A stretch of DNA of 64,000 nucleotides, from NCBI RefSeq assembly GCF_044324875.1, contig NZ_CP172185.1, one strand, 5' to 3'. This document shows positions 5,482 to 60,749 of the stretch, piece by piece. The stretch comes from Escherichia coli. Its GTDB lineage: Bacteria > Pseudomonadota > Gammaproteobacteria > Enterobacterales > Enterobacteriaceae. The first letter of the stretch is position 1; each line of letters starts with the position of its first letter. Below the pieces are notes generated by a model that made no database searches, was not told the origin of the DNA, and saw only the letters and a list, made by a program, of their open reading frames with translations. A program made the position numbers and the translations under genes.

Positions 5482-8722
<3,241 letters not shown>

Positions 8723-41583: not shown

Positions 41584-44500
41584 ATGGCAGATAATCCAAA
41601 CCTTTCATCGCCCCTGCCGGACGTGTTTTCACCGGCAACCCGCGACTGGTTTCTTCGCGCCTTTAAACAGCCGACCGCTGTCCAGTCGCAAACCTGGCAT
41701 GTGGCGGCGCGAGGCGAACATGCGCTGGTGATTGCACCGACTGGCTCCGGGAAAACGCTGGCAGCATTTCTCTACGCCCTCGATCAGCTCTTCCGCGAAG
41801 GCGGCGAAGATACCCGCGAGGCGCATAAACGTAAAACCTCACGCATCCTCTATATTTCACCGATCAAAGCTCTGGGCACCGACGTTCAGCGCAACTTGCA
41901 GATCCCGTTACAGGGTATTGCCGATGAACGGCGGCGGCGCGGCGAAACGGAAGTCAATCTTCGCGTGGGGATCCGTACTGGCGATACGCCTGCACAGGAA
42001 CGCAGCAAACTCACCCGTAATCCGCCGGATATTCTGATCACCACACCCGAATCACTCTATCTGATGCTGACCTCCCGCGCGCGCGAAACGCTACGCGGCG
42101 TCGAAACGGTAATTATTGATGAAGTCCACGCGGTAGCGGGCAGTAAACGTGGTGCGCATCTGGCGTTAAGTCTGGAGCGGCTCGATGCGCTGCTCCACAC
42201 CTCAGCACAGCGAATTGGCCTTTCTGCCACTGTACGCTCAGCCAGCGATGTTGCAGCATTTCTTGGTGGCGATCGCCCGGTTACGGTAGTAAACCCGCCC
42301 GCAATGCGCCATCCGCAGATACGGATTGTCGTACCGGTCGCCAATATGGATGATGTCTCATCGGTCGCCAGCGGCACCGGCGAAGACAGCCATGCCGGCC
42401 GAGAAGGCTCCATCTGGCCATATATTGAAACGGGTATCCTTGATGAAGTTTTGCGCCATCGCTCGACCATTGTCTTTACTAATTCACGCGGGCTGGCGGA
42501 AAAACTGACGGCACGATTGAATGAACTTTACGCCGCACGCTTACAGCGTTCCCCGTCTATCGCCGTTGATGCGGTCCATTTCGAGTCGACCTCCGGCGCA
42601 ACCTCTAACCGTGTACAAAATAGCGACATTTTTATTGCCCGCTCACACCACGGCTCCGTCTCTAAAGAACAACGAGCAATCACCGAACAGGCGCTGAAAT
42701 CGGGTGAATTACGCTGCGTGGTCGCAACCTCCAGTCTCGAACTGGGGATTGATATGGGCGCGGTGGATCTGGTGATTCAGGTGGCAACGCCGCTTTCTGT
42801 TGCCAGTGGGTTACAACGCATTGGACGTGCCGGACACCAGGTAGGTGGTATCTCCAAAGGGCTTTTTTTCCCCCGAACCAGGCGTGACTTAGTCGATTCC
42901 GCAGTCATTGTAGAGTGTATGTTCGCAGGCAGGCTGGAAAACCTGACACCGCCGCATAATCCACTCGACGTCCTTGCGCAGCAAACCGTTGCCGCCGCGG
43001 CGATGGATGCATTACAGGTAGACGAATGGTAATCCCGCGTACGCCGTGCCGCACCGTGGAAAGATCTGCCAAGACGTGTTTTTGACGCCACGCTGGATAT
43101 GCTTTCCGGGCGCTATCCCTCTGGCGATTTTTCTGCTTTTCGCCCCAAACTGGTCTGGAACCGGGAGACCGGGATATTGACCGCCCGACCTGGCGCTCAA
43201 TTGTTGGCGGTTACCAGCGGCGGCACCATTCCGGATCGTGGCATGTATAGCGTGTTATTACCCGAAGGTGAAGAACAGGCCGGTTCGCGGCGGGTGGGTG
43301 AACTGGATGAGGAGATGGTATATGAGTCGCGGGTGAACGACATTATCACTCTCGGCGCTACCTCATGGCGGATCCAGCAAATCACCCGCGATCAGGTGAT
43401 TGTGACTCCTGCTCCAGGTCGTTCTGCCCGCCTTCCCTTCTGGCGTGGTGAAGGTAACGGACGTCCGGCAGAATTAGGCGAGATGATCGGCGATTTTCTC
43501 CATTTACTGGCGGATGGCGCGTTCTTTTCCGGGACTATTCCCCCGTGGTTGGCAGAAGAAAATACGATCGCCAATATTCAGGGGTTGATTGACGAGCAGC
43601 GCAACGCGACGGGCATCGTTCCAGGTAGTCGTCATCTGGTCCTCGAACGGTGCCGTGATGAAATTGGTGACTGGCGTATTATTTTGCACTCTCCCTATGG
43701 AAGACGGGTGCATGAACCCTGGGCGCTGGCGATTGCCGGGCGAATACATGCACTATGGGGCGCTGACGCGTCTGTGGTTGCCAGTGATGACGGCATTGTT
43801 GCGCGCATTCCTGACACCGATGGTAAATTGCCTGATGCCGCGATTTTTTTGTTTGAACCAGAAAAGTTGCTGCAAATTGTCCGCGAGGCGGTAGGCAGCT
43901 CGGCACTTTTCGCCGCCCGTTTTCGCGAATGCTCCGCGCGGGCATTATTAATGCCGGGCCGCACGCCGGGCCATCGCACCCCGCTCTGGCAACAACGGCT
44001 GCGCGCCAGTCAGTTGCTGGAAATCGCTCAGGGATATCCGGATTTTCCGGTCATTCTCGAAACACTACGCGAATGTCTGCAAGATGTTTATGATCTTCCC
44101 GCGCTGGAACGTTTGATGCGTCGCCTGAACGGTGGCGAAATTCAAATATCCGATGTAACGACCACTACGCCTTCGCCTTTCGCCGCCAGTTTATTGTTCG
44201 GCTATGTCGCGGAATTTATGTACCAGAGCGACGCCCCGCTGGCAGAGCGCCGGGCATCCGTACTGTCGCTGGACAGCGAGTTACTGCGCAATCTACTCGG
44301 ACAGGTCGATCCGGGGGAATTACTCGACCCGCAGGTCATTCGCCAGGTGGAAGAAGAGTTGCAACGACTGGCTCCTGGCAGAAGAGCGAAAGGTGAAGAA
44401 GGATTGTTCGACCTGCTGCGCGAACTGGGGCCAATGACCGTTGAAGACCTGGCGCAACGACATACAGGCAGCAGTGAAGAGATTGCGTCGTATCTGGAAA

Positions 44501-45286
44501 ATCTTCTTGCAGTAAAACGAATCTTCCCGACCATGATTAGCGGGCAGGAGCGTCTTGCCTGTATGGATGATGCCGCCAGGCTGCGCGATGCTCTCGGCGT
44601 ACGACTACCAGAGTCACTGCCAGAGATTTATTTGCACCGAGTCAGTTACCCGCTTCGCGACCTCTTTCTGCGCTATCTCCGGGCTCATGCTCTGGTCACG
44701 TCTGAACAACTGGCTCATGAGTTTAGTCTCGGTACTGCCATTGTCGAAGAGCAACTTCAGCAACTGCGCGAACAGGGGCTGGTGATGAATCTGCAACAAG
44801 ACATCTGGGTGAGCGATGAAGTATTTCGTCGTCTGCGTTTGCGCTCGCTGCAAGCCGCCAGAGAAGCGACACGTCCCGTTGCGGCCACGACCTATGCGCG
44901 ATTGCTGCTGGAACGTCAGGGCGTATTACCCGCCACCGATGGTAGCCCGGCACTCTTTGCCTCAACATCGCCAGGCGTTTATGAGGGCGTGGATGGCGTG
45001 ATGCGGGTGATCGAACAGCTTGCTGGCGTTGGTTTACCCGCCTCACTCTGGGAAAGCCAGATCCTGCCTGCCCGCGTACGCGACTATTCGCCAGAAATGC
45101 TCGATGAATTACTGGCAACCGGTGCGGTTATCTGGTCGGGGCAAAAAAAGCTGGGTGAAGATGACGGTCTGGTGGCACTGCATCTACAGGAATATGCCGC
45201 AGAATCGTTCACTCCCGCCGAAGCAGATCAGGCGAATCGTTCGGCGCTGCAGCAAGCGATAATCGCTGTTCTGGCTGACGGAGGTG
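41584..45286 (+). pseudogene. lhr: ATP-dependent helicase Lhr, inactivated by an in-frame TAA (43030-43032) and truncated by prophage insertion at about 45286
   Basis: ORFs 41584..43032 and 43099..45297 share one frame. They are joined by DEW-TAA-SRVRRAAPWKDLP, where Lhr has a sense codon. DEAD-box motifs are present (APTGSGKT, DEVH, SATV). Lhr-like sequence ends after ...AVLADGG, which is about 1234 of about 1538 codons. Confidence 0.9.
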
Positions 45287-45294
45287 ATCAGACA

Positions 45295-45327
45295 TGAGAT
45301 AAATGAAGGGGGATCCGTGAGATAAAT
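45295..45327 (+). repeat. two direct copies of TGAGATAAAT at the prophage terminus (candidate transposase end-binding sites)
   Basis: Copies lie at 45295-45304 and 45318-45327, 23 bp apart, within 45 bp of the lhr junction. A degenerate third copy GATAGATAAG lies at 45391-45400. Confidence 0.5.
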
Positions 45328-45480
45328 AACGAATTGGAGTGGGTTAACATGGGTTCTGGTGAACAGAACTGAAATTCTTTTCCGCTATACGATAGATAAG
45401 TCGGGCATTGAAATCATCCTTCCTGGCAACTTAGAATCGAGTTTGCTGAAACATGACCCGCAACAAAAAGGATGATTCCA

Positions 45481-45642
45481 ATGACTACTCAAAACAATAA
45501 GCATGATAGCCTGGATTACTCAGAAAAGCCCAAAAGCAAGCACATCGTGACGTTCGAGCGCGATTCCGGTAGAAAAGGAGAATCGTCTTCCTCTGCCAAT
45601 AAAACCACTATGCCGGCAGCCCCTGCCCCAGGGAAAAAATAA
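45481..45642 (+). CDS. possible 53-aa hydrophilic protein (unsupported small ORF)
   Basis: ATG at 45481 is preceded by AAAGGA. The product MTTQNNKHDSLDYSEKPKSKH...PAAPAPGKK is low-complexity. The ORF is below the 60-aa track cutoff and converges on the 45646 gene with a 3-nt gap. Confidence 0.2.
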   Translation: MTTQNNKHDSLDYSEKPKSKHIVTFERDSGRKGESSSSANKTTMPAAPAPGKK

Positions 45643-45645
45643 ACA

Positions 45646-46278
45646 TCATTCATCGTTCGTTGCACGAACGCGCCTGATCTCCACTCTGGCAATCTGATCT
45701 GCTGGAATATAGGTTGCCAGAGCTCCCCAGTACTTATCAACCACGCCTTTATACTCTTCCCATTCGTTACTGCCTGAAGGGCTGCTGTGCGTGACGTAAA
45801 GAACCATATCGCCTTTATTCCCCAGGGTAAACGGACCGTTAGGCCACTCTTCAAAGTTCCCTGGCAGCCGTGACATCATACCGGAACCATCGCGAAGAAT
45901 CACTCTGACCTCGGTAACGCTGAAGCCTGTTTGATCAAACATTGCCTGCCATGCTGAGCTGGTATCGTCAGACCATGAAATATCATTATTCCACAGTAAT
46001 CTGTACATCCATTTGCGACCGTACCTGCGCCACCACGCACCGCATGTAACGGCACACAGAAGTGCTGGTGGTGTTGCCAGCCAGGCATTCAGACCTGCCC
46101 ACATAACAGCCTGGTAAGCCATCATTGCTGTCAGGCCAAAAATCAGCGAAGAAAAAGTCACCTCAATGGGCTTGTGGTGATCCTTCAGTCCCACATTCGC
46201 AATAAAATACCCAATATAGCCACTGGTCAGGGTCACCAGTGTTGCCCATGGCAGATTTAACAACGAAACGTCAAACAT
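45646..46278 (-). CDS. prophage left-end accessory membrane protein (about 3 TM N-domain plus about 110-aa soluble C-domain), function unknown
   Basis: ORF 45646..46356 trimmed to the ATG at 46278, preceded by GGGAGA, giving 210 aa. Hydrophobic segments include LVTLTSGYIGYFIANVGL, FSSLIFGLTAMMAYQAVMWAGL and PPALLCAVTCGAWW. It lies downstream of the mor terminator and is the last gene before the phage end. Confidence 0.7.
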   Translation of the reverse strand: MFDVSLLNLPWATLVTLTSGYIGYFIANVGLKDHHKPIEVTFSSLIFGLTAMMAYQAVMWAGLNAWLATPPALLCAVTCGAWWRRYGRKWMYRLLWNNDISWSDDTSSAWQAMFDQTGFSVTEVRVILRDGSGMMSRLPGNFEEWPNGPFTLGNKGDMVLYVTHSSPSGSNEWEEYKGVVDKYWGALATYIPADQIARVEIRRVRATNDE

Positions 46279-46316
46279 ATTTTCTCCCTGCATCCTGAAT
46301 ACTAAAGAGAGAGCAT

Positions 46317-46350
46317 AAAAAAAGCACGGTAAGGGGTCTACCGTGCTTTT
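46317..46350 (-). terminator. rho-independent terminator ending the early operon after mor
   Basis: Stem GCACGGTA / TACCGTGC (46324-46331 and 46339-46346) with a 7-nt loop. On the minus strand it is followed by 7 T (A-run 46317-46323). It starts 43 nt downstream of the mor stop. Confidence 0.65.
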
Positions 46351-46392
46351 ATACAATAAGGAGATTTTTGAAAGGACTTTAACAAGCAGGAA

Positions 46393-46791
46393 TTATCTGG
46401 ATTTGTTAACGTCTTTCGTCTCCTCTGGCAGATCTTCATCAAACAACCTGCCCTGCATCCGATCCAGTTCTTCTTTTCTGACCCGCTTAACCACGCTGTA
46501 GACCCACTGAAGCGAAACACCAAACTTGCGGGCCAGTTCGTGGTGGTTGCGTCCGTTAAACTCCCTGAAGATTTCCCGGTCGCGCTGACTGACCTTCCAT
46601 ACCATGCCCATCGGGAAATAAACGTTTTGCCCGCCCCAGACCTGCATCATTCGGTTCGCGACGGCCTGACCAATCTGGTCGGCAATTGCGGGCTCAATAT
46701 CAATAATCTCGCGAACGGTCTCAGAGGTATGCTGTGCCAGCTCCACCAGGAGTTCCGGCCCTTTACTTCGAAACTGATTCAGGTCGCTCAT
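46393..46791 (-). CDS. mor: Mor-family transcriptional activator
   Basis: 132 aa. The C-terminal half (GGQNVYFPMG...REFNGRNHHELARKFGVSLQWVYSVVKRVR) resembles the phage Mu Mor/C HTH region. Confidence 0.85.
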   Translation of the reverse strand: MSDLNQFRSKGPELLVELAQHTSETVREIIDIEPAIADQIGQAVANRMMQVWGGQNVYFPMGMVWKVSQRDREIFREFNGRNHHELARKFGVSLQWVYSVVKRVRKEELDRMQGRLFDEDLPEETKDVNKSR

Positions 46792-47215
46792 GTTTTACTC
46801 CCGCAGCTCTGTGCTGCCACTTCTTCAGTTTCTCAATAACACTGCTTGCCTGTTCAGTATTGAGCCAGCGCAGGGCGCTGATGCCCGTTTCCCGCTTGAT
46901 CCACCGCGCTAATGCATTTTCTGAACGGTCACGAACAATGCCGGCAGCAGCCATTTCAAGCCATAGCGCACGGATTTTCCTGGACTGCGGATGGTTATCC
47001 AGCGGTAAACCGGAGCTGGCTTTTCCGGCAGGCTTAACGCGAAAGCCTTTCCTTTTCATGGATTCCAGCACGCAGTTTAGTTGTGTGGTATCCATTCCTT
47101 TGGTTGAGGCTTTACCGGTCAGCCCCTGTAACATCTGGCGATAGGTGTCTTCATCCATACCCAGTTCATTACGGGCAATATGAATGAGCTGGATAAGACG
47201 TTGTTTAGTCATCAT
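46763..47215 (-). CDS. GemA-like (Mu gp16, DUF1018) regulatory protein
   Basis: ORF trimmed to the ATG at 47215, preceded by AAGGAG, giving 150 aa. The motifs LIQLIHIARNELGMDEDTYRQML and QSRKIRALWLEM are typical of the GemA family. It sits next to mor, as in Mu. Confidence 0.7.
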   Translation of the reverse strand: MMTKQRLIQLIHIARNELGMDEDTYRQMLQGLTGKASTKGMDTTQLNCVLESMKRKGFRVKPAGKASSGLPLDNHPQSRKIRALWLEMAAAGIVRDRSENALARWIKRETGISALRWLNTEQASSVIEKLKKWQHRAAGVKHERPESVSK

Positions 47216-47420
47216 CGTTGCTCCTTTTACCTGCGCCACCGATATAATCGACATATAAAGGAAGCGCCACAGGCCAGCACAGGAACATCACCGACCAGCT
47301 AATCCAGTAGCCGGCACCACTGTAACGTGAATAAAACCCTGAACGGCGGTGCAGTTCAGCAGTACACCAACCGACAAAACAATACCAGAACAGGGCACAT
47401 ACAACAGATTCAGCCGTCAT
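47205..47420 (-). CDS. small two-TM membrane protein, unknown function
   Basis: 71 aa from the ATG at 47420 (MTAESVVCALFWYCFVGWCTAEL...ISWSVMFLCWPVALPLYV). It overlaps both neighbours, consistent with translational coupling. Confidence 0.5.
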   Translation of the reverse strand: MTAESVVCALFWYCFVGWCTAELHRRSGFYSRYSGAGYWISWSVMFLCWPVALPLYVDYIGGAGKRSNDDD

Positions 47421-47640
47421 TCTGAATATCCCCCCAACTGATATGAATATTACGGGCAGCAATGACAGGGTCGTTATTCCACCATGCACCTGACATGTAT
47501 TTTTCAACCTGTTCGCGTCCGGCAATAACACCAATTGTGATCCCCGGCCTGACGTTCTTAAAAAAGGCGCGGGCAAAAAGGTATCTGGCAGATATTCGGC
47601 AGGCTTTTAATTTCCGGCTGTTACCTGATAGCGTAATCAT
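47410..47640 (-). CDS. hypothetical early protein
   Basis: 76-aa ORF whose ATG overlaps the upstream stop (ATGA). No motif was recognised. Confidence 0.5.
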   Translation of the reverse strand: MITLSGNSRKLKACRISARYLFARAFFKNVRPGITIGVIAGREQVEKYMSGAWWNNDPVIAARNIHISWGDIQNDG

Positions 47641-48320
47641 CTGGCCTCCAGTTTCTGTTGTTCCTGCCCACTGACCGGGCGGTGCAGTCTGACGTTCTGC
47701 CCTTCACGAAACCCCGCATAGCGCGAGGCGTCGCCATTGCGGCTTCTTCCCGGTTTACGCGCCCTGGTGGTTTGCGTCTGCGGGTATTTATGTTCCAGCC
47801 ACTGCTGCATCAGTTCACGCTCATCATCGGTCAGGGCAAAGGACTGTATTTCACTGATAACGGCCAGCACCCAGCCTTCGGCAAACTGGTCTCCACGGCT
47901 GGTGCGGGTGGCGGTTTTTATTCTTTTGTTCTGTGCACTGATATACTGCTGACGCGCCTTTTTCAGCTGACGGGCCAGCACTTCCCAGGTGTATGCAGCC
48001 AGTGCCGCACGTTCCCGGTTGCCGTAGAACCCCACAGACGGATGCGTGCCGGGGTGAATGATGGAGTTAACACCAAATACCTCGCGGATGATGTTCATCA
48101 GGCCTGGCATGTAGCGCGGTGGACGGAGACTGCCTGTCGGCCAGTAGTGACTGATGGTTTCATCAATATCACTCATAGCAATGTCGGAATGTGTGATGCC
48201 GTGAACATCCATCAGTTTACGGGCTCGGCGCAGTGCCAGAGCGGCCTCGTGCGGGTTGCCGGATGCGGCCAGCGCCAGCAACTTTTTCAGTTTCTCAATG
48301 TGTTTATTCTGGTCTGTCAT
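47637..48320 (-). CDS. DUF2786-like early protein
   Basis: ORF trimmed to the ATG at 48320 (ATGA overlap with the upstream stop), giving 227 aa. The N-terminus IEKLKKLLALAASGNPHEAALALRRARKLM is the DUF2786 signature as I recall it. Confidence 0.6.
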   Translation of the reverse strand: MTDQNKHIEKLKKLLALAASGNPHEAALALRRARKLMDVHGITHSDIAMSDIDETISHYWPTGSLRPPRYMPGLMNIIREVFGVNSIIHPGTHPSVGFYGNRERAALAAYTWEVLARQLKKARQQYISAQNKRIKTATRTSRGDQFAEGWVLAVISEIQSFALTDDERELMQQWLEHKYPQTQTTRARKPGRSRNGDASRYAGFREGQNVRLHRPVSGQEQQKLEAR

Positions 48321-48532
48321 TGTTCTGTATCTCCGGTATTTTTCTGCCGTTTCCATGCCCGGACAGCGTCGGACAGCTCTTTCAGGCTGTATGCTGCTTT
48401 AAGCTTTTCCCATAACCACTGTGTTGTTATGTGCATCAGCAGGGCAGCCAGGGCTGCCCCCGCACTGAGGCATGTCGCCAGGCCAGTAAGAATCAGTATC
48501 CATGCGGTGATTTCCCTGAGTATGTCAGCCAT
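48317..48532 (-). CDS. small single-pass membrane protein
   Basis: 71 aa with the TM segment ITAWILILTGLATCLSAGAALAALLM. Confidence 0.5.
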   Translation of the reverse strand: MADILREITAWILILTGLATCLSAGAALAALLMHITTQWLWEKLKAAYSLKELSDAVRAWKRQKNTGDTEQ

Positions 48533-49413: not shown

Positions 49414-49944
49414 TTACTGCACATCCTGCTCAAAAGGAATTATTGAAAAATCCTCAATGTCGCTTTTAATGGAAATACCGGGAATATTTTTCACGGCCTC
49501 TTTTTCATTCAGGATAGCGTCTTTATTTATTTCCTCTTTTACACGAATAAAGCGCTCAAGCCCCAGACGTCTCAGTAATTCAATAACATTATCCGCCCCA
49601 CGGATACTGACTGATGGCGGACGGTTTCGCCACTGCACCTCGCCGGTGGTAAGGTTAGCGAACTTCACCTTCCCGTTGCCGGTCAGTTCATCACGGTGCG
49701 CCTCACACCATGTCTGGATACCGGACTGCAGTTCGGCCATGCGTTTTTTCAGGCTCTCGGTGAGCGGGGCATAACGTGCGGTGATATCGCCAATGGCGTC
49801 ATTCATTTCTGTTTCAGCCCTGACCAGTTCACGTTGTGCGTCACCGAGTAGTCTGATTCCCTCAATGACCTCTTCGCGTGTCCCTGGTACCCAGAGTGCC
49901 GCTGCGGCCTTGATACGTTTTGCCCCTTTTGTACTTTTTGCCAT
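49414..49944 (-). CDS. gam: host-nuclease inhibitor Gam (Mu Gam / Ku-like)
   Basis: 176 aa. It is collinear with Mu Gam from my memory of that sequence: MAK..KRIK.AAA, ETEMNDAI, WCEA.RDELT..GKVK.ANL.TG, W..RPPSVSIRG, RLGLERFIR, EDFSIIPFEQ. Confidence 0.9.
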   Translation of the reverse strand: MAKSTKGAKRIKAAAALWVPGTREEVIEGIRLLGDAQRELVRAETEMNDAIGDITARYAPLTESLKKRMAELQSGIQTWCEAHRDELTGNGKVKFANLTTGEVQWRNRPPSVSIRGADNVIELLRRLGLERFIRVKEEINKDAILNEKEAVKNIPGISIKSDIEDFSIIPFEQDVQ

Positions 49945-50243: not shown

Positions 50244-51410
50244 TTAAACTCCTTTGACAACGTCAGCGTTGACCTGTGGAACCCCGATTTCAGCGGCCAG
50301 ATTCATGGCGGCTATTACCAGGTTACTGACGGCCAGCGGATACAGCAGGCTGACCATATTTTTACGATGACTTCCCGGATTGCTCAGGCGGGCACGTATG
50401 GCATCCACTGCGCTGGCGTCCATAATGTCCGTCAGTTGTTTACCGGCCCGTTGCAGTTTGAACGTCAGAAATTCTTCAAGGTTATTGTCCAGAGGCAGAA
50501 GTTCGACCACCTCACAGCGCTGAACGACTTCACGGACTTCCATATTGCGTTCAGACAGTTTTGTCGCCAGTTCCGGCTGGCCAATCAGCACGATGGACAG
50601 CAGTTTTTTGAAACCGGACTCCAGCTCAAAAAAGCGTTTGAGGTGTTTCAGTGTCGGAATGGGCAGACTGTGGGCCTCCTCAATCACCAGAACGTGGCTG
50701 AACCCCGCCTGGCTGCTGTCTTTCAGGACGCGATGCAACTGGCGAAAGCGGGCGTCCTGACTGCGTCTGATGCTTTCCAGTGGTGCGATGGTACTGATAA
50801 TGGCTTCGGCAATAGCTGCTGCCTTCAGGGTTTTCCCTTTCACATCGTTGTCTTCCATAGCGATGATGTATGGCTCGATAACAATTACCGGCGCATTCTC
50901 GCGGTTAATACGTTCAGTCAGGTCGCGGCGCAGCGTGGATTTACCCGCACCGGACTCACCGATGACGGCCATAAACCCACCATGACGGGCTGTCTGGTAC
51001 AGCGCCTCACGCACGTAGCGAATGTCCGGGGTGGTGAACACATCATCAGAACCCTGCATGGCTTCATCGGCGAACGGGTCACGGAAAAGACCAAACGCTT
51101 TTTTGGTTGCTGGAAATAACACCTGTTTTTTGAGTAACATATTCTCTTCCTCACTGAGGCTCGTTTTATCTGTGGTACCCGCTGTACGGGGCGTGGCCGC
51201 GCCCTGTACAGCATCAAAACTCTTCGTTGTATCAATCCCCTGACTTTCCAGCCAGGACGCAAGACGCCGGCGCACTTCTCCGGGGCTGGTGCGGGGCCAC
51301 GCGTTATGATTCACAATCTGGGCCAGCGTGGCCTCAGAAACATCGACAGCTCTCGCCGCCACCGCCTGTGGAATACGGGCCTCTTTCAGTTGCTGCTTCA
51401 GTACCAGCAT
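50244..51410 (-). CDS. transposition ATPase (MuB analogue, ExeA/AAA_22-type)
   Basis: ORF trimmed to the ATG at 51410, preceded by GAGGAGGG, giving 388 aa. It has an N-terminal HTH-like segment, Walker A GESGAGKST and Walker B HVLVIEEAH. It lies directly downstream of the transposase gene. Confidence 0.85.
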   Translation of the reverse strand: MLVLKQQLKEARIPQAVAARAVDVSEATLAQIVNHNAWPRTSPGEVRRRLASWLESQGIDTTKSFDAVQGAATPRTAGTTDKTSLSEEENMLLKKQVLFPATKKAFGLFRDPFADEAMQGSDDVFTTPDIRYVREALYQTARHGGFMAVIGESGAGKSTLRRDLTERINRENAPVIVIEPYIIAMEDNDVKGKTLKAAAIAEAIISTIAPLESIRRSQDARFRQLHRVLKDSSQAGFSHVLVIEEAHSLPIPTLKHLKRFFELESGFKKLLSIVLIGQPELATKLSERNMEVREVVQRCEVVELLPLDNNLEEFLTFKLQRAGKQLTDIMDASAVDAIRARLSNPGSHRKNMVSLLYPLAVSNLVIAAMNLAAEIGVPQVNADVVKGV

Positions 51411-51420
51411 GTTTCCCTCC

Positions 51421-53190
51421 TCAGTTGCCGTTAACAATGCTGATAACGCTGCTGCGGGCCGGCGTGGTCAGCGTGGCCATGACTTCATCCAGTGCGGCTT
51501 CCGGTACGCCGTCCGGGTACTGTGCTGTTAACTGGCGGTAATGTTCCGGCGTCCAGGTCAGGCCGTCGGCGCTGAACTTATCGCGCAGGGCTTTCGCGGC
51601 CTCCACATGAGTCATGGGACGCTGTTCAGTGCGCGGTCCGCGTACGTCAGAGGCCTGACCACGCTTCGGTATACAGGCCGGAAGTGTGGCGTCATCAATA
51701 TGTTTATACGGGTCAAGCCGCCCGCCGAACGGCAGCGCCTTCGCCTTGCGTGCGGCAGCTGCATCTGCGGCGTTGTCTGTACCGGTGACCAGCGCTTCGG
51801 TTTCTTTTGCCGCCATCTGCGCCGGGGTTTCCGGCAGGGCTTTGTAACTTTCGCCAAATACCGCCGCGCCTTCAGCAAAGCCAAACTCGTTCTTTCTGAC
51901 CTCTTCGACCAGGAAGAACGTCTCGTGGCCGTCCTCACCGGTCAGAACCACCTGTGCCACATCGCTGCGCCACGGGTTACGGGTAATCATCAGTTTTTCA
52001 CCGACCAGTACGCCCGGTACCGTTGATACGTCAAATTCAGTGCCCCGGAACGAGACACGAAGTTTTGGCGTGACTTTGCGGAGTTCTGGTGCCGCCACAG
52101 CCAGTTCACGACATACCTCAACGGAAGGCGCTTTTTTCAGCTGCTCAGCAGTAATCTTCAGCCAGATATCCGTGCGGGTTTTACCGTGGCGGCTGTGAAC
52201 AGCCGTGGCGTTAAAGTGGCTGCGCCATTTCGCGGCCAGCGCGTTGAGTTCTTCCAGACTGTGAACCGGCCGGAACTTCAGACCCGGCTCCAGCTTGCGT
52301 TCGATAATGTCACGCGCCTTTTCCACCTGTCCGGTGGCGCGGGCGTTATGCGGCTTGTGCGCTATCAGGTCGATGCCCAGTGAGCGGCACATGTTTTTCG
52401 TCATACCCGCGGTGTTTGCCGAGCCGGGGTCGAGATAGAGTATTTTTGGCACGCCGTGCAGCACGTCTGCGCCGCCACGCTCCTGCATGGCGTTGATAAG
52501 CACAGAACACAGGTTCTCACCGGATTCCGCACCCGTCACATACTCAACGTAAATCCAGCCGCTGGCATGGTCGGTAATCTCGTAACTCCACACGCGGTCA
52601 CTGGCGATACGGGCAAGGTTAGCGGGCTTGTTTTTGTAGAATTTCGCGCTGTCCATCACCTGCAGCCCTTTATGTCCATTGCTCAGGTAGTAAAGCGTGC
52701 AGAGTGAGGCGTCAATCTGCCAGACATGATTGGGGTGCAGACTGGCCACTTCGGTATGCGGTGCAGGGGCATCCAGTTGTTCCGGGTGCAGGCCATAGTT
52801 ACGCAGGGCACGACTGATGGCATCTTCGGACAACGGGAAAAACTCACCGGTGGTTTCATCTGTTCTGCCTGCGGAGATAAAGCCGTTAGCCCGCAGGGTT
52901 TCCACTGCATCCGCGATGGAATAGAGACGCTTACCGTTCTTGCGGGTGGCCTCACGTAGTGTGGCAGATATCAGCGCGGCTTCGTCGCGGGTCAGGGTGC
53001 TGCGTCCGGCATCGGCGCGTTTTTTGCGTTTATCAGTCACAGAGACCTCCTTCAGCCTGCGCAGCAGAGTGGCGCGGGACATGCCAAGTTCAGCACAGGC
53101 AGCGTCGTATATTGCACCGCGTTTACCATGCCCCGCATTACGTGCCGCGCGGGCTGTTTCAACAAGTTTTTCAGTCAGTGCCGGGGTCAT
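51421..53190 (-). CDS. DDE transposase (MuA analogue, rve/integrase core)
   Basis: 589 aa with an N-terminal HTH (MSRATLLRRLKEV). The catalytic triad candidates are D in VWQIDAS, D in LYLDPGS and E 36 residues later (GQVEKA), which is the D-x35-E spacing. Confidence 0.9.
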   Translation of the reverse strand: MTPALTEKLVETARAARNAGHGKRGAIYDAACAELGMSRATLLRRLKEVSVTDKRKKRADAGRSTLTRDEAALISATLREATRKNGKRLYSIADAVETLRANGFISAGRTDETTGEFFPLSEDAISRALRNYGLHPEQLDAPAPHTEVASLHPNHVWQIDASLCTLYYLSNGHKGLQVMDSAKFYKNKPANLARIASDRVWSYEITDHASGWIYVEYVTGAESGENLCSVLINAMQERGGADVLHGVPKILYLDPGSANTAGMTKNMCRSLGIDLIAHKPHNARATGQVEKARDIIERKLEPGLKFRPVHSLEELNALAAKWRSHFNATAVHSRHGKTRTDIWLKITAEQLKKAPSVEVCRELAVAAPELRKVTPKLRVSFRGTEFDVSTVPGVLVGEKLMITRNPWRSDVAQVVLTGEDGHETFFLVEEVRKNEFGFAEGAAVFGESYKALPETPAQMAAKETEALVTGTDNAADAAAARKAKALPFGGRLDPYKHIDDATLPACIPKRGQASDVRGPRTEQRPMTHVEAAKALRDKFSADGLTWTPEHYRQLTAQYPDGVPEAALDEVMATLTTPARSSVISIVNGN

Positions 53191-54450: not shown

Positions 54451-54765
54451 TTACAAACGACTACCTGAAATGACACGTTGGTTGATTTCGTTAATGCGAT
54501 CCTGTGCACGTGCCATCTCGTTACTGTGGGCCATGGCGATCTGCAGCAACTGGATGCCCGGTGCGAAACGCCCGTTTTCCAGTTTCAGGGCCAGTCCTTC
54601 TTCAATGAGGGTGTTGAGTGCCCGGTTGATGTTTGCCGGTGACTCGTGCAGTGCTGCCGCCAGTTCACCATTGGAAATACCGTTCAGGGCATGACCGCGC
54701 AGCGCTTTGAGTACCCGGAGGATGCGACTGCCGGAGCTTGAAACATTCGTCTTACTCATCTGCAT
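54451..54765 (-). CDS. winged-helix DNA-binding protein (IclR-N-like)
   Basis: 104 aa. The segment RILRVLKALRGHALNGISNGELAAALHESPANINRALNTLIEEGL resembles an IclR-type wHTH. Confidence 0.55.
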   Translation of the reverse strand: MQMSKTNVSSSGSRILRVLKALRGHALNGISNGELAAALHESPANINRALNTLIEEGLALKLENGRFAPGIQLLQIAMAHSNEMARAQDRINEINQRVISGSRL

Positions 54766-54811
54766 ACCTCTTTTGCGATATGTGATAACCTTTTACAAAG
54801 AATCAAAATAT

Positions 54812-55000
54812 TCAGGCTGCCTGAGCTGTTGATTTCAGCCCCAGTTTCACGGCGATTTCATGGGATTTACCGTAACGTGCTTTGCTCTGCCCATTGAGAA
54901 CGCGGTATACCTCATTGCGGTTGTAGCCGTTTTCTTCTGCCCAGCGGGTGAAAGTGATCCCGCGCTGGCGGAAGAGAGCTTTGACTTGTTCTGCAGTCAT
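54812..55000 (-). CDS. small HTH protein, first gene of the early operon (Ner/Cro functional analogue, BcepMu gp16-like)
   Basis: 62 aa, preceded by AAGGAG and divergent from the repressor gene. The HTH-like segment is FTRWAEENGYNRNEVYRVLNG. Confidence 0.6.
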   Translation of the reverse strand: MTAEQVKALFRQRGITFTRWAEENGYNRNEVYRVLNGQSKARYGKSHEIAVKLGLKSTAQAA

Positions 55001-55100
55001 CGTTGTCTCCTTTGTTGATGCAATGATGTTTGCCTTATGTGTGATAGATTATGGTGCAGATTATCTCACCAGTCAACTTAAAGAGTGCAGAAAAACTCAC
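55001..55100. promoter_or_regulatory. divergent immunity/early promoter-operator region
   Basis: 100-bp spacer between the Ner-like gene and the repressor gene. It contains GTGAT-AGATTAT-GGTGC-AGATTAT-CTCAC, with the 7-bp direct repeats at 55046 and 55058 and outer GTGA/TCAC inverted arms. Confidence 0.55.
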
Positions 55101-55439
55101 ATGATCGGGTTACGTATTAAAGAAGAAAGAGAGCGTCTATCTCTTACACAGCAAGGGTTGGCTGATGCTATCGGTGTGGCAAAGAGAACTTTTATTGATT
55201 GGGAAAAAGATCGCACTTCTCCTACTGCAGTGCAGTTATCTGCACTATCAGAAATCGGTGTAGATGTTTTGTATGTAGTTACTGGGGTGCGGAGTCAGCC
55301 TGTTGTTGCACCTTATATGTCACAAGAAAAGAAAGAGTTAATGGATGCATTCGACGAGATGAGCCCCGAACAACGGAGGGCAATTCTTGAGGTCGGCAAA
55401 GTCTTCATTCAACCCAAACCAAGCAAACTCGCAGGCTGA
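55101..55439 (+). CDS. XRE-family prophage repressor (no peptidase domain)
   Basis: ORF 54948..55439 trimmed to the ATG at 55101, giving 112 aa. The HTH_3 motif is LRIKEERERLSLTQQGLADAIGVAKRTFIDWEKDRTSP. Confidence 0.8.
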   Translation: MIGLRIKEERERLSLTQQGLADAIGVAKRTFIDWEKDRTSPTAVQLSALSEIGVDVLYVVTGVRSQPVVAPYMSQEKKELMDAFDEMSPEQRRAILEVGKVFIQPKPSKLAG

Positions 55440-55524
55440 TTCTGACCTGGACAGAAAGGACAGGTGGTTGATCTGGATGCTTTCAGAAAACGCCGTCAGT
55501 AGCATGGCAGAAATCGGCGGGCTT

Positions 55525-55549
55525 ACCGGAAAGCACTGTACTTTCCGGT
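55525..55549. terminator. hairpin between the convergent repressor and dam genes
   Basis: Stem ACCGGAAAG / CTTTCCGGT with a 7-nt loop. The flanking T runs are weak. Confidence 0.4.
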
Positions 55550-55557
55550 TATGGCTT

Positions 55558-56322
55558 TTAGAAATTGCAGATCACCAGCTCACGGCGTGGAGTTGATTTG
55601 CCTGCCAGACTGTAGTTGATGTTCACTGTCTGTATGTTCAGTCCAGTGAACACCTCGCGCATCTGCGGGATGTCGTTCACCGAAATTATCATCTTTCCTC
55701 TGATGCACCGGGCCAGCTCTGCCAGCCGCGAGTAGTTCCCTTCAGGAAAATCCACACCATAGCCTTCTGTACCCAGATACGGCGGGTCACAGTAGAACAG
55801 CGTGTGCGGACGGTCATAGCGCTCAATGCACTGTTGCCAGTCCATGTGTTCTATCACCGTTCTGGAAAGCCGCAGGTGTGCCGCTGACAGTTCTTCCTCG
55901 ATACGCAGCAGGTTGAAGCGTGGCGGGGATGTGGTGGAGGTGCCGAAGCTGTGCTCTGCCACCTTGCCGCCAAACGCCTGCTTCTGGAGGTAGTAGAACC
56001 GTGCTGCACGCTGGATATCCGTCAGTGTTTCTGTCGGGGTGATCTGCAGCCATTTGTAGATCTGCCGGCTGACCAGCGCCCATTTGAACTGGCGGACAAA
56101 TTCTTCCAGATGATGTTTTACCACCCGATACAGATTTACCAGTTCACCATTGATATCGTTAATGACTTCGAGCTTACCAGGTGTCTTAAGAAAATAGAGC
56201 GCTGCTGCGCCGCAGAACGGCTCCACGTAACATTCATGCGCCGGAAACAGCGGCAGGATGTGTTTTGCCAGGCGACGTTTGCCACCAATCCATGGAACGA
56301 TGGGTAATGTCTGCATTTTCAT
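55558..56322 (-). CDS. dam: Dam-type N6-adenine DNA methyltransferase (D12 class), orphan
   Basis: 254 aa with the AdoMet motif EPFCGAAALYF and the catalytic DPPY motif (FYCDPPYLG). No adjacent nuclease gene was recognised. Confidence 0.9.
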   Translation of the reverse strand: MKMQTLPIVPWIGGKRRLAKHILPLFPAHECYVEPFCGAAALYFLKTPGKLEVINDINGELVNLYRVVKHHLEEFVRQFKWALVSRQIYKWLQITPTETLTDIQRAARFYYLQKQAFGGKVAEHSFGTSTTSPPRFNLLRIEEELSAAHLRLSRTVIEHMDWQQCIERYDRPHTLFYCDPPYLGTEGYGVDFPEGNYSRLAELARCIRGKMIISVNDIPQMREVFTGLNIQTVNINYSLAGKSTPRRELVICNF

Positions 56323-57787: not shown

Positions 57788-58138
57788 ATGAAACCATTCA
57801 CTTCCCTTATCGTTGACGTACAAAAAACCCGCCTGCGTGGATGGCTTGTTGCGGCCGTGCTGCTGCTCCTCATCATCGCGCTGGTCTCACCCCAGCAGTT
57901 GCCGGTGGTGGTGTACAAGCTCTCTCTCATCTCCCTCGCCGCCGTGCTCGGCTACTGGCTGGACCGCTCACTCTTCCCGAAGGCCCGTCCGGGGCAGTAC
58001 CTGAAGCATGACGAGCGCCTCATGGCTGAGGGGCGCTGGCCCGTACAGACCGGCCTTCACCTGGTGTTTTCTGCTGCGTTAATCCGCCGTGCACTGATTG
58101 TTGCAGCTGTCTGTCTGGCTGTTGCGATGGGGCTTTAA
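57788..58138 (+). CDS. putative holin (3 TM)
   Basis: 116 aa, preceded by AAGGAGA. It has three hydrophobic segments and sits immediately upstream of the endolysin gene. Confidence 0.6.
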   Translation: MKPFTSLIVDVQKTRLRGWLVAAVLLLLIIALVSPQQLPVVVYKLSLISLAAVLGYWLDRSLFPKARPGQYLKHDERLMAEGRWPVQTGLHLVFSAALIRRALIVAAVCLAVAMGL

Positions 58139-58140
58139 TC

Positions 58141-58875
58141 ATGAACTGGCCACAGAGCACCTGGATTGTATGCATGTCCCTGAAACTGGCTTTCGAAGCC
58201 TTTCTGGTCTTCATCAGAACCGAACGCCTGTCAGTCCGTGTCGGGACCTTTCTGGTTCATATGGCATGGGTATTCTTTGTCGCAATGTTGCTCTGGTGTG
58301 GCGGCTTCTTCAGTCAGGCCCGCGCAGCGCAGCCTCCGCAGGCTGCGCTGCAGTATCGCGATGATGTGATCCGTAATGCCCGGCTTGAATGGGGGCTGTC
58401 TGCGCCGGTGGCCGATTTCGCCGCGCAACTGCATCAGGAAAGCGGCTGGCGGACTGATGCGGTCTCGCCGGTGGGCGCTCAGGGGCTGGCGCAGTTTATG
58501 CCCGCCACCGCTGACTGGATAAGCCAGTTGATGCCGGCGTTGAGCAGTCGTGAGCCGTTTAATCCGGCATGGGCCATCCGGGCGCTGGTCAGCTATGACC
58601 GCTGGCTGTGGCAGCGCATCAGCGCCGCCAGTGACTGCGAGCGTATGGCCATGACACTGTCGGGCTATAACGGTGGTCTGGGTTGGGTACAACGGGACAG
58701 GCGGCTCGCATCACAGAAAGGTCTGGACAGCACCCGCTGGTTCGGACATGTCGCCACGGTGAATGCCGGACGCAATGCTGCCAGCTGGCGGGAGAACCGC
58801 CATTATCCGCAGCGCATCCTGCACGAACTGGCCCCCCGTTATCTGACATGGGGGGGCGGCAGCTGTGTGGACTAA
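58141..58875 (+). CDS. SLT-domain lytic transglycosylase endolysin with an N-terminal hydrophobic anchor or signal
   Basis: The ORF carries the catalytic ES motif (QLHQESGW), GLAQFMPATA and YNGG. Its N-terminus contains MAWVFFVAMLLWCGGFFSQARA. The start codon is ambiguous (58141 or 58261). Confidence 0.8.
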   Translation: MNWPQSTWIVCMSLKLAFEAFLVFIRTERLSVRVGTFLVHMAWVFFVAMLLWCGGFFSQARAAQPPQAALQYRDDVIRNARLEWGLSAPVADFAAQLHQESGWRTDAVSPVGAQGLAQFMPATADWISQLMPALSSREPFNPAWAIRALVSYDRWLWQRISAASDCERMAMTLSGYNGGLGWVQRDRRLASQKGLDSTRWFGHVATVNAGRNAASWRENRHYPQRILHELAPRYLTWGGGSCVD

Positions 58876-59167
58876 CCTGCTAAAAAATCTGCCGTGGCGC
58901 AGTCTGCTGCTGGCAGTGCTCATAAATGCTTTTCTGATTGGACTTTATTACCTGGGCTACAAAAGTGCAAAATGGCATCTGAATCGATCGCAGTTTGGCA
59001 TTCGAATCGATCATGATTTGGCATCCATCTCCGATCACAGTTTGGCATCACAATCGATCACGATTTGGCATGCTTCCGATCATTGATTGGCATCCTGCCA
59101 GTCACTCCGGGAATTAACTCTTTTCACCACAGTCTCCATTGCCGTGTTTAAACCAGTGGAGACGTCA

Positions 59168-60733: not shown

Positions 60734-60749
60734 CAGAAGGAACAACAGT

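What the first reader, a model, noticed from the sequence alone, without database searches (positions are those of the whole stretch)
45481..46350. Terminator-insulated membrane protein gene at the extreme left end (moron; candidate exclusion or defence function)
The early operon ends at a clean intrinsic terminator (46317-46350) just after mor. One more minus-strand gene then follows before the phage end. It encodes a 210-aa protein with about three N-terminal TM helices and an unrecognised C-terminal domain of about 110 aa (...GNFEEWPNGPFTLGNKGDMVLYVTHSSPSGSNEWEEYKG...). The region to its left looks more AT-rich by eye than the early operon. A terminal position, a separate transcription unit and a membrane protein with no recognisable family are typical of lysogen-expressed morons, such as superinfection exclusion or abortive-infection factors. 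A 53-aa hydrophilic ORF (45481-45642) converges on it with a 3-nt gap, but its reality is doubtful.
Basis: inference. Interest (0 to 1): 0.6.

Follow-up and report, generated by a model that had tools for sequence, protein, structure and literature searches.

The report
Prophage membrane-protein cassette, likely antiviral
The last two genes at the left end of a Mu-type prophage in E. coli form a conserved, portable pair: a three-helix membrane protein and a tiny proline-rich partner facing it, and relatives of this pair turn up in phage defence hotspots, so it is a good but untested candidate for a new antiviral module.

Summary
A BcepMu-like transposable prophage interrupts E. coli lhr, and its left end is the TG at 45285. 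After mor comes a strong terminator (46313-46350, z = -7.1), then a 210-aa gene (45646-46278, minus strand). The protein is predicted N-out with three TM helices and a cytoplasmic Sm/SH3-like beta-barrel. It is a distant relative of DUF6338.

The "doubtful" 53-aa convergent ORF (45481-45642) is real. Its dN/dS is 0.11, the same as the big gene, and PGAP annotates it. A small proline-rich ORF abuts the 3' end of homologues in about 50 loci from Gamma- and Alphaproteobacteria.

The slot is variable. Of E. coli genomes, 639 carry this gemA-mor backbone and only 129 carry the gene; ST131-type relatives have 163 bp there instead.

Homologous pairs sit in unrelated phages. These include the P2 gpQ-gpA defence hotspot, sites between head or tail genes, and a Rhizobium island flanked by Shosta-, PARIS- and Avs-like genes.

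It is therefore a genuine two-gene moron. A defence function is supported only by association, and no known defence family matches. Expression in lysogens, the promoter and the mechanism remain untested.

The parts
45285..45324 (.). Left end (attL) of the BcepMu-like transposable prophage. It starts with TG and carries two direct GAGATAAAT repeats at 45296 and 45319.
   Evidence: Matches in other E. coli genomes begin at 45282-45285 beside different host genes. This 40-bp stretch is the only part left of mor that is kept (82%) in empty-slot relatives. The repeats were located. The flank is lhr.
45408..45437 (+). Sigma-70-like promoter candidate (TTGAAA-18-TAGAAT, 10 of 12) placed to drive the small partner gene.
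   Evidence: Promoter scan. This is a consensus match only. The region as a whole has no more such sites than its shuffles.
45481..45642 (+). Small partner gene: 53 aa, hydrophilic, with N-terminal DYSEKPK and C-terminal PAAPAPGKK. It is convergent with the membrane-protein gene, and the stop codons are 3 nt apart.
   Evidence: It matches phrog_15726 over 53/53 residues (E 1e-41). PGAP annotates it as a CDS. dN/dS is 0.107, with 12 synonymous and 6 non-synonymous differences against L032. An HMM of it hits a convergent abutting ORF in 35 loci.
45646..46278 (-). 210-aa inner-membrane protein (phrog_12870, a distant relative of DUF6338). Predicted topology is N-out with three TM helices and a cytoplasmic Sm/SH3-like small beta-barrel.
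   Evidence: dN/dS is 0.104. A profile search finds 522 clusters at 50% identity.
46284..46288 (-). Shine-Dalgarno sequence GGGAG, 5 nt upstream of the ATG at 46278.
   Evidence: Read directly from the sequence.
46312..46317 (-). -10-like hexamer TATGCT directly after the terminator T-run. A -35-like TAGACC lies 17 bp upstream in the hairpin loop. Together they are a possible weak promoter embedded in the terminator.
   Evidence: A TAnnnT hexamer sits in the same place in 8 of 9 distinct enterobacterial loci. The match is 8 of 12, below the scan threshold, so it was not reported. This is inference.
46313..46350 (-). Intrinsic terminator between mor and the membrane-protein gene. An A-run and a T-run flank the stem, so it may also stop plus-strand (antisense) transcripts, more weakly.
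   Evidence: dG -19.1, z -7.08. Stem changes in L004, L005, L016 and L022 are compensatory. The hairpin stays about 40 nt upstream of the gene even when an extra gene follows mor.
46393..46791 (-). mor, the last conserved gene of the early operon and the right-hand border of the variable slot. Homology to empty-slot relatives resumes at 46432-46437.
   Evidence: Pfam Mor, E 1e-43.

Best explanation
The feature is a portable two-gene accessory cassette (a moron). It lies between mor and the left end of a BcepMu-like transposable prophage.

Gene 1 encodes an inner-membrane protein. Its short N-terminus faces the periplasm. It has three TM helices, and the first helix and first loop are the most conserved part of the family. 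A cytoplasmic Sm/SH3-like beta-barrel follows. Gene 2 faces it tail to tail and encodes a roughly 50-aa hydrophilic protein with a proline-rich, lysine-ended C-terminus.

Shown: the anatomy, purifying selection on both genes, the presence/absence polymorphism, and the occurrence of the pair in unrelated phages, in the P2 defence hotspot and in a defence island.

Inferred: the cassette protects the lysogen against other phages. The membrane protein would be the effector, most likely an oligomeric membrane-perturbing protein acting in abortive-infection style, or less likely a block to DNA entry. The small partner would restrain or tune it. That control could act at the RNA level, because the abutting 3' ends force the two transcripts to overlap as antisense. 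It could also act at the protein level, with the PxxP-KK tail docking on the SH3-like barrel.
For: Cassette and moron status:
- 639 E. coli genomes carry this gemA-mor backbone and only 129 carry the gene.
- Empty-slot relatives have 163 bp between the element end and the mor stop, against 1108 bp here.
- GC is 46.7% against 54.3% for the early operon.
- Homologues sit between the head-tail adaptor and head closure genes (L066), between the distal tail protein and the tail fibre (L070), after portal and head-morphogenesis genes (L071), and after a tail chaperone (L077).

Partner gene:
- dN/dS is 0.107 for the small gene and 0.104 for the large one.
- HMM hits to an abutting convergent ORF occur in 35 enterobacterial and 16 alphaproteobacterial-type loci, including loci not used to build the models.
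- The gap between the stop codons is -20 to +7 nt in most loci.
- A partner is also present in the P2-like and Rhizobium loci.

Defence association:
- Three different P2-like phages carry portal, Ogr/Delta, the homologue, a 43-aa partner, variable genes, then gpA. A fourth, L062, has the homologue in the same interval but no partner was seen there. That interval is the published defence hotspot (PMC9122126).
- The Rhizobium leguminosarum homologue is flanked by ShosT/ShosA (E 7e-11 and 1e-70), AriA/AriB-like (5e-41 and 2e-5) and an Avs2-like gene (1e-20).

Protein:
- Charge distribution follows the positive-inside rule: 0 K+R in the N-tail, 2 in loop 1, 5 just after TM3.
- Residues 1-36 are 75% identical on average across the family, against 44-53% for the other regions.
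Against: - There is no experimental datum of any kind.
- No PADLOC, Pfam or NCBIfam defence family matches.
- The association evidence is anecdotal: four P2-like loci, one island and one TA-adjacent prophage. It is not an enrichment statistic, and hotspots also carry non-defence cargo.
- Within enterobacterial BcepMu-like phages the gene has diverged in step with the backbone. It is 56-69% identical, against 49-62% for A and B. That is more like a long-resident phage gene than rapidly swapped defence cargo.
- No promoter passes the scan on the gene's strand. A strong terminator sits 41 nt upstream, so expression in lysogens is unproven.
- In two unrelated phage types the gene directly follows the late-gene activator (Mor or Ogr/Delta). 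This could point to a role in the phage's own development.
- The enterobacterial and alphaproteobacterial small partners are not demonstrably homologous (hhalign probability 1.6%).
Confidence: 0.5

Rival explanations
1. Classical superinfection exclusion. The membrane protein sits in the inner membrane of the lysogen and blocks genome entry of incoming phages, as P22 SieA, HK97 gp15 or T4 Imm do. The small partner would be incidental or regulatory.
For: It is a small inner-membrane protein encoded at a prophage end behind a terminator. The periplasm-facing N-tail plus TM1 is the most conserved part (75% mean identity). That would fit contact with a conserved host or phage entry component.
Against: Exclusion proteins are usually tied to one phage type. 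This family occurs in Mu-like, P2-like and several siphovirus-type prophages, and also in non-phage islands. It has a near-universal partner gene, which known Sie proteins lack. No homology to any Sie protein was found.
Confidence: 0.17
2. An addiction or toxin-antitoxin-like module. It would stabilise whatever mobile element carries it (membrane toxin plus small protein and/or antisense antidote), with no dedicated antiviral role.
For: The tail-to-tail, abutting or overlapping arrangement is conserved. It resembles 3'-overlapping type I TA loci such as txpA/RatA and bsrG/SR4 (my own knowledge). The pair is found on many kinds of mobile element. Neighbours include HigB and ShosTA.
Against: A 210-aa protein with a folded cytoplasmic domain is unlike type I toxins, which are under 60 aa. 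The 'antitoxin' region is under protein-level selection. A Mu-type prophage does not excise and is not easily lost, so stabilising it would bring little benefit. Many TA modules are themselves defence systems, so this rival overlaps the main explanation.
Confidence: 0.15
3. An ordinary, dispensable early or middle gene of this phage lineage that acts in the phage's own lytic cycle. Examples would be host takeover, control of lysis timing, or membrane-linked replication. It would be expressed by partial read-through of the terminator after mor.
For: Within enterobacterial BcepMu-like phages the position is fixed and divergence tracks the backbone. No scan-grade promoter exists. Empty-slot relatives also have a terminator after mor, so the terminator is not specific to the cargo. 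There are weak Foldseek matches of the 3-TM part to class I and LydA holins (E 0.008-0.5). The gene follows a late-gene activator in both Mu-like and P2-like phages.
Against: The gene is absent from most close E. coli relatives, which are otherwise 96-99% identical in flanking genes. It is absent from sequenced phages of the group (KP12, PhiKM, phiE255). Homologues occur in non-phage defence islands and at unrelated positions in structural-gene modules. The hairpin stays attached to this gene, not to mor, when an extra gene intervenes.
Confidence: 0.13
4. A mini MscS-like or other ion channel that changes host physiology (lysogenic conversion unrelated to phages).
For: It has the same gross plan as MscS: N-out, three TM helices, then a cytoplasmic Sm-like beta domain (the MscS architecture is from my own knowledge). 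TM3 is rich in small residues, with A76 nearly invariant and G80 invariant.
Confidence: 0.05

Closest known systems
Phage morons encoding lysogen-expressed membrane proteins (HK97 gp15, P22 SieA, T4 Imm as functional analogues)
   Same: It is an extra gene between conserved neighbours and is absent from close relatives. It has slightly deviant base composition and is set off by a terminator. Its product is a small inner-membrane protein encoded at a prophage end.
   Different: There is no sequence or fold relationship. This cassette has a conserved convergent partner gene. It is not confined to one phage type, or even to phages. An own promoter and expression in lysogens have not been shown.
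Pfam DUF6338 (PF19865), an uncharacterised family of membrane proteins
   Same: Twenty of 36 relatives give weak hits (best E 1.4e-6), and some database entries are named DUF6338. Length (about 200-220 aa) and membrane character agree.
   Different: The window protein itself gives no hit at E up to 1. No function is known for DUF6338. The only paper in the library that mentions it is a proteomics list.
Cargo of the P2 gpQ-gpA anti-phage hotspot (Rousset et al. 2022, PMC9122126)
   Same: Homologues at 59-62% identity lie in exactly this interval in P2-like phages. A convergent small partner accompanies them in three of the four examples (L073-L075). The neighbouring cargo differs between them.
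   Different: The window copy lies in a Mu-type phage, not in P2. The family is not among the systems in PADLOC-DB. No protection has been tested.
3'-overlapping convergent type I toxin-antitoxin loci (txpA/RatA, bsrG/SR4, fst/RNAII)
   Same: A membrane protein gene faces a convergent transcription unit, with no room for a terminator in between. Antisense overlap of the 3' ends is therefore unavoidable.
   Different: The 'toxin' is 210 aa with a folded cytoplasmic domain. The opposing unit encodes a peptide under purifying selection. Toxicity has not been tested.
Lambda RexAB-type abortive infection (membrane effector plus cytoplasmic partner expressed from a prophage)
   Same: It is a two-component, prophage-borne system with a polytopic inner-membrane protein as the presumed effector.
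   Different: There is no homology. The genes are convergent, not in an operon. The partner is a 50-aa, probably unstructured peptide, not a 279-aa sensor.
MscS mechanosensitive channel
   Same: The predicted topology is the same: N-out, three TM helices, then a cytoplasmic Sm-like beta domain.
   Different: There is no sequence match, no MscS among the best structural matches, and no alpha-beta or C-terminal barrel domains.

Membership tests
Moron (extra gene unit in a phage genome, in the sense of Hendrix and colleagues) | Present in some genomes and absent from close relatives at the same site, between conserved neighbours | tested here: met
   639 E. coli genomes carry the gemA-mor backbone and 129 carry the gene. 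Empty slots in L002 and L006-L008 have 163 bp instead of 1108 bp.
Moron (extra gene unit in a phage genome, in the sense of Hendrix and colleagues) | Own promoter and terminator, so that it can be expressed from the repressed prophage | tested here: inconclusive
   There is a strong, conserved terminator upstream. No scan-grade promoter exists on the gene's strand. Only a conserved -10-like hexamer after the T-run can be pointed to. No downstream terminator lies before the element end.
Moron (extra gene unit in a phage genome, in the sense of Hendrix and colleagues) | Base composition different from the surrounding phage genes | tested here: met
   GC is 46.7% for 45285-46392 against 54.3% for the early operon. 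The difference is modest, and the gene itself is 49.9%.
Moron (extra gene unit in a phage genome, in the sense of Hendrix and colleagues) | The same unit is found at other positions in unrelated phages | tested here: met
   It occurs in the P2-like gpQ-gpA interval, between head-tail adaptor and head closure genes, between the distal tail protein and the fibre, and after portal and head-morphogenesis genes.
Pfam DUF6338 (PF19865) | Score above the family's gathering threshold | tested here: not met
   The window protein has no Pfam hit at E up to 1. Twenty of 36 relatives hit only weakly, with a best E of 1.4e-6. It is at most a distant relative.
Known anti-phage defence systems (PADLOC-DB 2.0) | Match to a model of a known or candidate defence protein | tested here: not met
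   Neither protein matches any family at E up to 10.
Anti-phage defence genes in general | Recurrent location in defence islands or hotspots | tested here: inconclusive
   Homologues lie in the gpQ-gpA hotspot of four P2-like loci. One lies in a Rhizobium island with ShosTA, AriAB-like and Avs2-like genes. These are few loci, and no enrichment statistic was computed.
Anti-phage defence genes in general | Protects cells or cultures against phage infection | not testable with these tools
   This needs cloning and phage challenge.
Superinfection exclusion proteins (SieA, gp15 of HK97, Imm) | Sequence or fold relationship to a known exclusion protein | tested here: not met
   No named family matches in Pfam, PHROGs, NCBIfam or PDB. 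The best structural matches are Sm proteins and generic 3-TM holins.
Superinfection exclusion proteins (SieA, gp15 of HK97, Imm) | Inner-membrane location in the lysogen | tested here: inconclusive
   Three TM helices and a positive-inside charge pattern are predicted. Expression in the lysogen was not testable.
Type I (antisense RNA) toxin-antitoxin loci with 3' overlap | Small hydrophobic toxin peptide, typically under 60 aa | tested here: not met
   The protein is 210 aa and has a folded 90-aa cytoplasmic domain.
Type I (antisense RNA) toxin-antitoxin loci with 3' overlap | Convergent transcription units whose 3' ends must overlap | tested here: met
   The stop codons are 3 nt apart here and -20 to +7 nt apart in most homologous loci. 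No terminator lies between them. The transcripts themselves were not observed.
MscS-type channels | MS_channel domain, or MscS as a top structural match | tested here: not met
BcepMu-like (Bcepmuvirus) transposable prophage (the carrier element) | Mu-type transposition and early genes (rve transposase, AAA+ B protein, Gam, GemA, Mor), and insertion at unrelated host sites with a TG end | tested here: met
   Pfam hits. Different flanking host genes. The closest deposited phage, PhiKM, is classified as Bcepmuvirus.

The most novel reading that the evidence does not exclude
The pair is a previously unrecognised, widespread two-gene anti-phage system of Proteobacteria and their temperate phages. 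A DUF6338-like membrane effector has an Sm/SH3-like cytoplasmic barrel that is held in check by a polyproline-lysine-tailed micro-protein. The genes are wired tail to tail, so that each transcript is antisense to the other. Phage-induced loss of the labile partner, as peptide or RNA, would release a membrane-damaging oligomer.
Probability: 0.3. Interest if true: 0.7.

Novelty: new variant of a known kind. Interest (0 to 1): 0.55.

Why it matters
If the cassette protects against phages, it would add a compact system of about 0.9 kb. That system has no relative among described defences. It is carried by Mu-like, P2-like and siphovirus-type prophages and by chromosomal islands in both Gamma- and Alphaproteobacteria.

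It would also give a function to part of the DUF6338 neighbourhood of protein space (522 clusters at 50% identity). It would offer a clean example of a conserved micro-protein, and of obligatory convergent transcription, as a control device.

The locus also shows that the extreme left end of BcepMu-like prophages is a cargo slot worth mining. About 2% of complete E. coli genomes carry this particular cargo. These include clinically relevant lineages such as ABU 83972 and O25 strains.

Tried and rejected
- Pfam, NCBIfam and PADLOC scans of both proteins gave nothing usable. The only hit was a RhaT match at E 0.18, which is noise.
- A PDB sequence profile search gave nothing below E 0.5.
- Foldseek against PDB gave nothing significant. 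BFVD gave one uncharacterised full-length match and weak generic 3-TM holin matches. I do not take these as homology.
- The AFDB50 fold library was not available.
- I tried to predict a complex by fusing the two proteins with a linker in a paired alignment (A4).
- I tested whether the enterobacterial and alphaproteobacterial small partners are homologous. hhalign probability is 1.6% and neither HMM detects the other group. They are treated as positional and compositional analogues that share short motifs.
- A sigma-70 promoter scan found nothing on the gene's strand.
- Literature searches for DUF6338, for the protein accessions and for the PHROG number found nothing relevant. A broader search on Mu-like prophage defence found no description of this gene.
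- The P2-type allele (P0220) was not found in complete E. coli genomes.
- I considered and rejected the idea that the terminator alone marks the gene as independent. Empty-slot relatives also end the early operon with a different terminator.
Full report
**Where we are**

The window is E. coli chromosome. The 600 bases left of 45285 match lhr in 4382 complete genomes.

From 45285 rightwards runs a transposable prophage. Its early genes read leftwards on the minus strand:
- an rve-type transposase (51421-53190) and an AAA+ B protein (50244-51437)
- Gam (49414-49944)
- a DUF2786/DUF7168 protein (47637-48356)
- GemA (46763-47254)
- Mor (46393-46791)

The closest deposited phage, PhiKM, is classified as Bcepmuvirus.

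Identical copies of the left-end region occur in other E. coli genomes beside flgJ, flgA, clbG, otsA and other genes. The match always starts at 45282-45285. The element therefore transposes, and its left end is the TG at 45285. Two GAGATAAAT repeats follow at 45296 and 45319.

**The observation**

- *Gene.* It runs 45646-46278 on the minus strand. The start is an ATG preceded by GGGAG. The longer TTG-initiated ORF in the mechanical list would begin inside the terminator. The 210-aa product aligns end to end with phrog_12870 and with the CDS that PGAP annotates elsewhere.
- *Terminator.* It has a 13-bp stem and seven T residues. Folding gives dG -19.1 kcal/mol and z = -7.1 against shuffles.
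- *Base composition.* The 1.1 kb between the element end and mor is 46.7% GC, against 54.3% for the early operon.
- *Small ORF.* The 53-aa ORF (45481-45642, plus strand) ends 3 nt from the stop codon of the large gene.

**The small ORF is real and is the partner**

- It matches phrog_15726 over its whole length.
- NCBI's pipeline annotates it.
- Against an 88%-identical E. coli allele (L032) it shows 12 synonymous and 6 non-synonymous differences. That gives dN/dS 0.107, indistinguishable from 0.104 for the large gene.
- An HMM built from nine enterobacterial versions finds one ORF per locus in 35 loci (E 1e-9 to 1e-25 among about 18,000 ORFs). It is always on the opposite strand and abuts the 3' end of the large gene.
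- A second HMM, built from six alphaproteobacterial-type small ORFs, does the same in 16 loci. Nine of these were not used to build it.
- The distance between the two stop codons is -20 to +7 nt in most loci.
- The P2-like phages, the Rhizobium island and a further prophage have the same kind of ORF.
- The two groups are not alignable by hhalign (probability 1.6%). They do share length, hydrophilicity, an N-terminal [D/N/S]-Y-[S/T]-[E/P] motif, and a proline-rich C-terminus ending in KK (PAAPAPGKK, PPPSPKKK, PPPPKK).

I treat them as the same functional partner. Common descent is not demonstrated.

**The protein**

- *Family size.* The family is large and uniform. A profile search finds 522 clusters at 50% identity, nearly all 200-220 aa and matched end to end.
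- *Pfam.* Twenty of 36 aligned relatives hit DUF6338 weakly. The window protein itself does not.
- *Structure.* AlphaFold2 with the family alignment gives pLDDT 84.7. The model has helices at 11-28, 37-60 and 65-97 and a beta domain at 119-205.
- *Topology.* There are no K or R residues in the N-tail, two in loop 1 and five just after TM3. This predicts N-out and C-in, so the beta domain is cytoplasmic.
- *Conservation.* Residues 1-36 (N-tail, TM1 and loop 1, including invariant P10, W11, G20, Y21, Y24, G30 and H35) are 75% identical on average. Other regions are 44-53% identical. The membrane part is therefore more than an anchor.
- *Mosaic alleles.* One relative is 97% identical in the barrel but 40% identical in TM2-TM3. 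Another shows the reverse pattern.

**The slot**

Of 5426 complete E. coli genomes, 639 carry this gemA-mor pair. Only 129 carry the large gene, 118 of them over at least 80% of its length.

In relatives without it, homology breaks inside the last codons of mor (46432-46437) and resumes only for the terminal 40 bp. This holds for the ST131 prophage in the yersiniabactin island, for strain FDAARGOS_1252 and for phage PhiKM. There, 163 bp holding a different terminator separate mor from the end.

Other E. coli alleles (L004, L005) keep the N-terminal half at 82-86% nucleotide identity, have a diverged barrel, and insert a further 78-aa gene after mor.

Across Citrobacter, Serratia, Salmonella, Symbiopectobacterium, Arsenophonus and related prophages, the gene always sits directly after mor at the element end. 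It is 56-69% identical there. The transposase and B protein are 49-62% identical. In this phage lineage it is an old passenger that some sublineages have lost, not a recent arrival.

**The terminator and transcription**

The hairpin upstream of the gene is conserved in structure while its stem sequence changes: GCACGGTAG/CTACCGTGC here, GCGCAATGG/CTGTTGCGC in L004 and L005, and a third version in L016 and L022. It stays about 40 nt upstream of the start codon even where an extra gene separates it from mor. It therefore travels with the cassette.

A TAnnnT hexamer directly follows the T-run in eight of nine distinct loci (TATGCT here, at 46317-46312). A TAGACC lies 17 bp upstream in the hairpin loop. 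This would be a weak promoter (8 of 12) embedded in the terminator, and the scan did not report it. I rate it as a lead only.

A better consensus match (TTGAAA-18-TAGAAT, 45408-45437) precedes the small gene.

No terminator lies between the two genes. Their transcripts must therefore overlap as antisense. An A-run and a T-run flank the hairpin, so it could also end the plus-strand transcript.

**Where else the pair lives**

This is the most informative result.

- *P2-like phages.* Homologues of 59-62% identity lie in the order portal, Ogr/Delta-type gene, homologue, then further cargo and gpA. In three of the four phages (L073-L075) a 43-aa convergent partner follows the homologue; in L062 no partner was seen. 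The remaining cargo differs between them. Rousset and colleagues identified the gpQ-gpA interval as a hotspot of anti-phage systems (PMC9122126).
- *Rhizobium leguminosarum.* The homologue is flanked by ShosT/ShosA (E 7e-11 and 1e-70), an AriA/AriB-like pair (5e-41 and 2e-5), an Avs2-like NTPase (1e-20) and an IS66 element.
- *Other prophages.* Copies interrupt structural modules. They lie between the head-tail adaptor and head closure genes (L066), between the distal tail protein and the tail fibre (L070), after portal and head-morphogenesis genes (L071), after capsid and decoration genes (L067), and after a tail chaperone near a HigB toxin (L077).
- *Bradyrhizobium.* The pair follows a resolvase-type HTH gene in an island.

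This is the distribution expected of a self-contained, horizontally mobile cassette. Its company is what one sees for defence genes.

**What it most likely does**

*Shown.* It is a two-gene unit under purifying selection. It is portable, dispensable for the carrier phage, and encodes a polytopic inner-membrane protein with a cytoplasmic small barrel plus a micro-protein.

*Inferred.* It serves the lysogen against other phages. The breadth of carriers and the non-phage copies argue against a kin-specific entry block. The tight, conserved restraint architecture argues for a potentially harmful effector. I therefore favour an abortive-infection or toxin-antitoxin-like mechanism at the membrane over classical exclusion.

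Approximate confidence:
- cassette and moron status: 0.9
- defence in the broad sense: 0.55
- the specific effector-plus-restraint mechanism: 0.25-0.3

*Against.* No known defence model matches. The association is anecdotal. No promoter is proven. Divergence tracks the backbone in Mu-like phages. The gene follows late-gene activators (Mor, Ogr/Delta) in two phage types, which could point to a role in phage development.

**Comparison with known systems, and novelty**

It behaves like a moron and resembles prophage membrane effectors such as RexB or Sie proteins, and 3'-overlapping type I TA loci. It belongs to none of them by sequence or fold. It is at best a distant relative of DUF6338, whose function is unknown.

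I found no description of the gene, the pair or the PHROGs in the paper library. I rate it a new variant of a known kind (prophage accessory or defence cassette) and moderately interesting. It is a well-delimited, cheap-to-test candidate among many such candidates. Its unusual features are the conserved micro-protein and the tail-to-tail wiring.

Noticed in passing
window 59087-61505: An IS21-family insertion sequence sits inside the prophage. It comprises an IstA-like transposase (rve + Mu-transpos_C_2, 548 aa) and IstB (PF01695, E 2e-60). It lies between the holin/SLT endolysin genes (57788-58875) and the Mu gp27-like gene (62792-63340). Related phages PhiKM and KP12 match the flanks in separate pieces. 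The prophage's late operon is probably interrupted, and the prophage may be defective.
   Followed up: partly
window 43099-45297 and 45285: The prophage is inserted in the helicase gene lhr. The lhr reading frame runs into the element and stops at 45297. The other part of lhr and the right prophage end lie outside the window, so the target-site duplication could not be checked.
   Followed up: partly
L004 1850-2225, L005 1943-2179, L012 7690-7977: Some relatives carry one more small gene (78-95 aa) after mor. In L004 and L005 it lies upstream of the conserved hairpin. In the Serratia locus L012 it lies downstream of it. The slot therefore has at least two independent cargo positions.
   Followed up: no
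window 46393-46791; L073-L075 6719-6976; L062 5636-5959; L009 7658-7927: The membrane-protein gene directly follows a small transcription-factor gene in unrelated settings. This is Mor in Mu-like phages, Ogr/Delta in P2-like phages, and an HTH_7 protein in Bradyrhizobium. This may be coincidence, or a hint that the activator and the cassette are functionally linked.
   Followed up: no
alignment A1 (P0003, P0005 against window 45646-46278): Alleles are mosaic. P0003 is 97% identical in the beta-barrel but 40% identical in TM2-TM3. P0005 is 97% identical in the N-terminal segment but 61% identical in the barrel. This suggests recombination between domains.
   Followed up: partly
window 45325-45480: The stretch between the terminal 40 bp and the small gene is conserved in L004 as DNA, and reads there as a 34-38-aa ORF beginning MNRTEILFRYTIDKSGIEI. 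Other conserved strings (for example GREIFKRETCDKCGSTWD in one frame) recur at the left ends of Serratia, Arsenophonus and Symbiopectobacterium prophages. These are probably internal transposase-binding sites, not genes.
   Followed up: no
window 54451-56322: The immunity region of the prophage holds divergent HTH genes: an IclR/HTH_24-like gene at 54451-54765 (minus) and an HTH_3 gene at 54948-55439 (plus). A Dam-type N6-adenine methyltransferase follows at 55558-56322 (minus), on the strand opposite to the late genes.
   Followed up: partly
L003 (Synechococcus phage Ssp-JY41, PP438431.1) 5983-6726: The only deposited 'phage' record with a homologue (29% identity) has it at the very end of a 20-kb record. 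It lies just downstream of what reads like a BrnT/BrnA-type toxin-antitoxin pair. That is my reading of the translation and was not tested.
   Followed up: no
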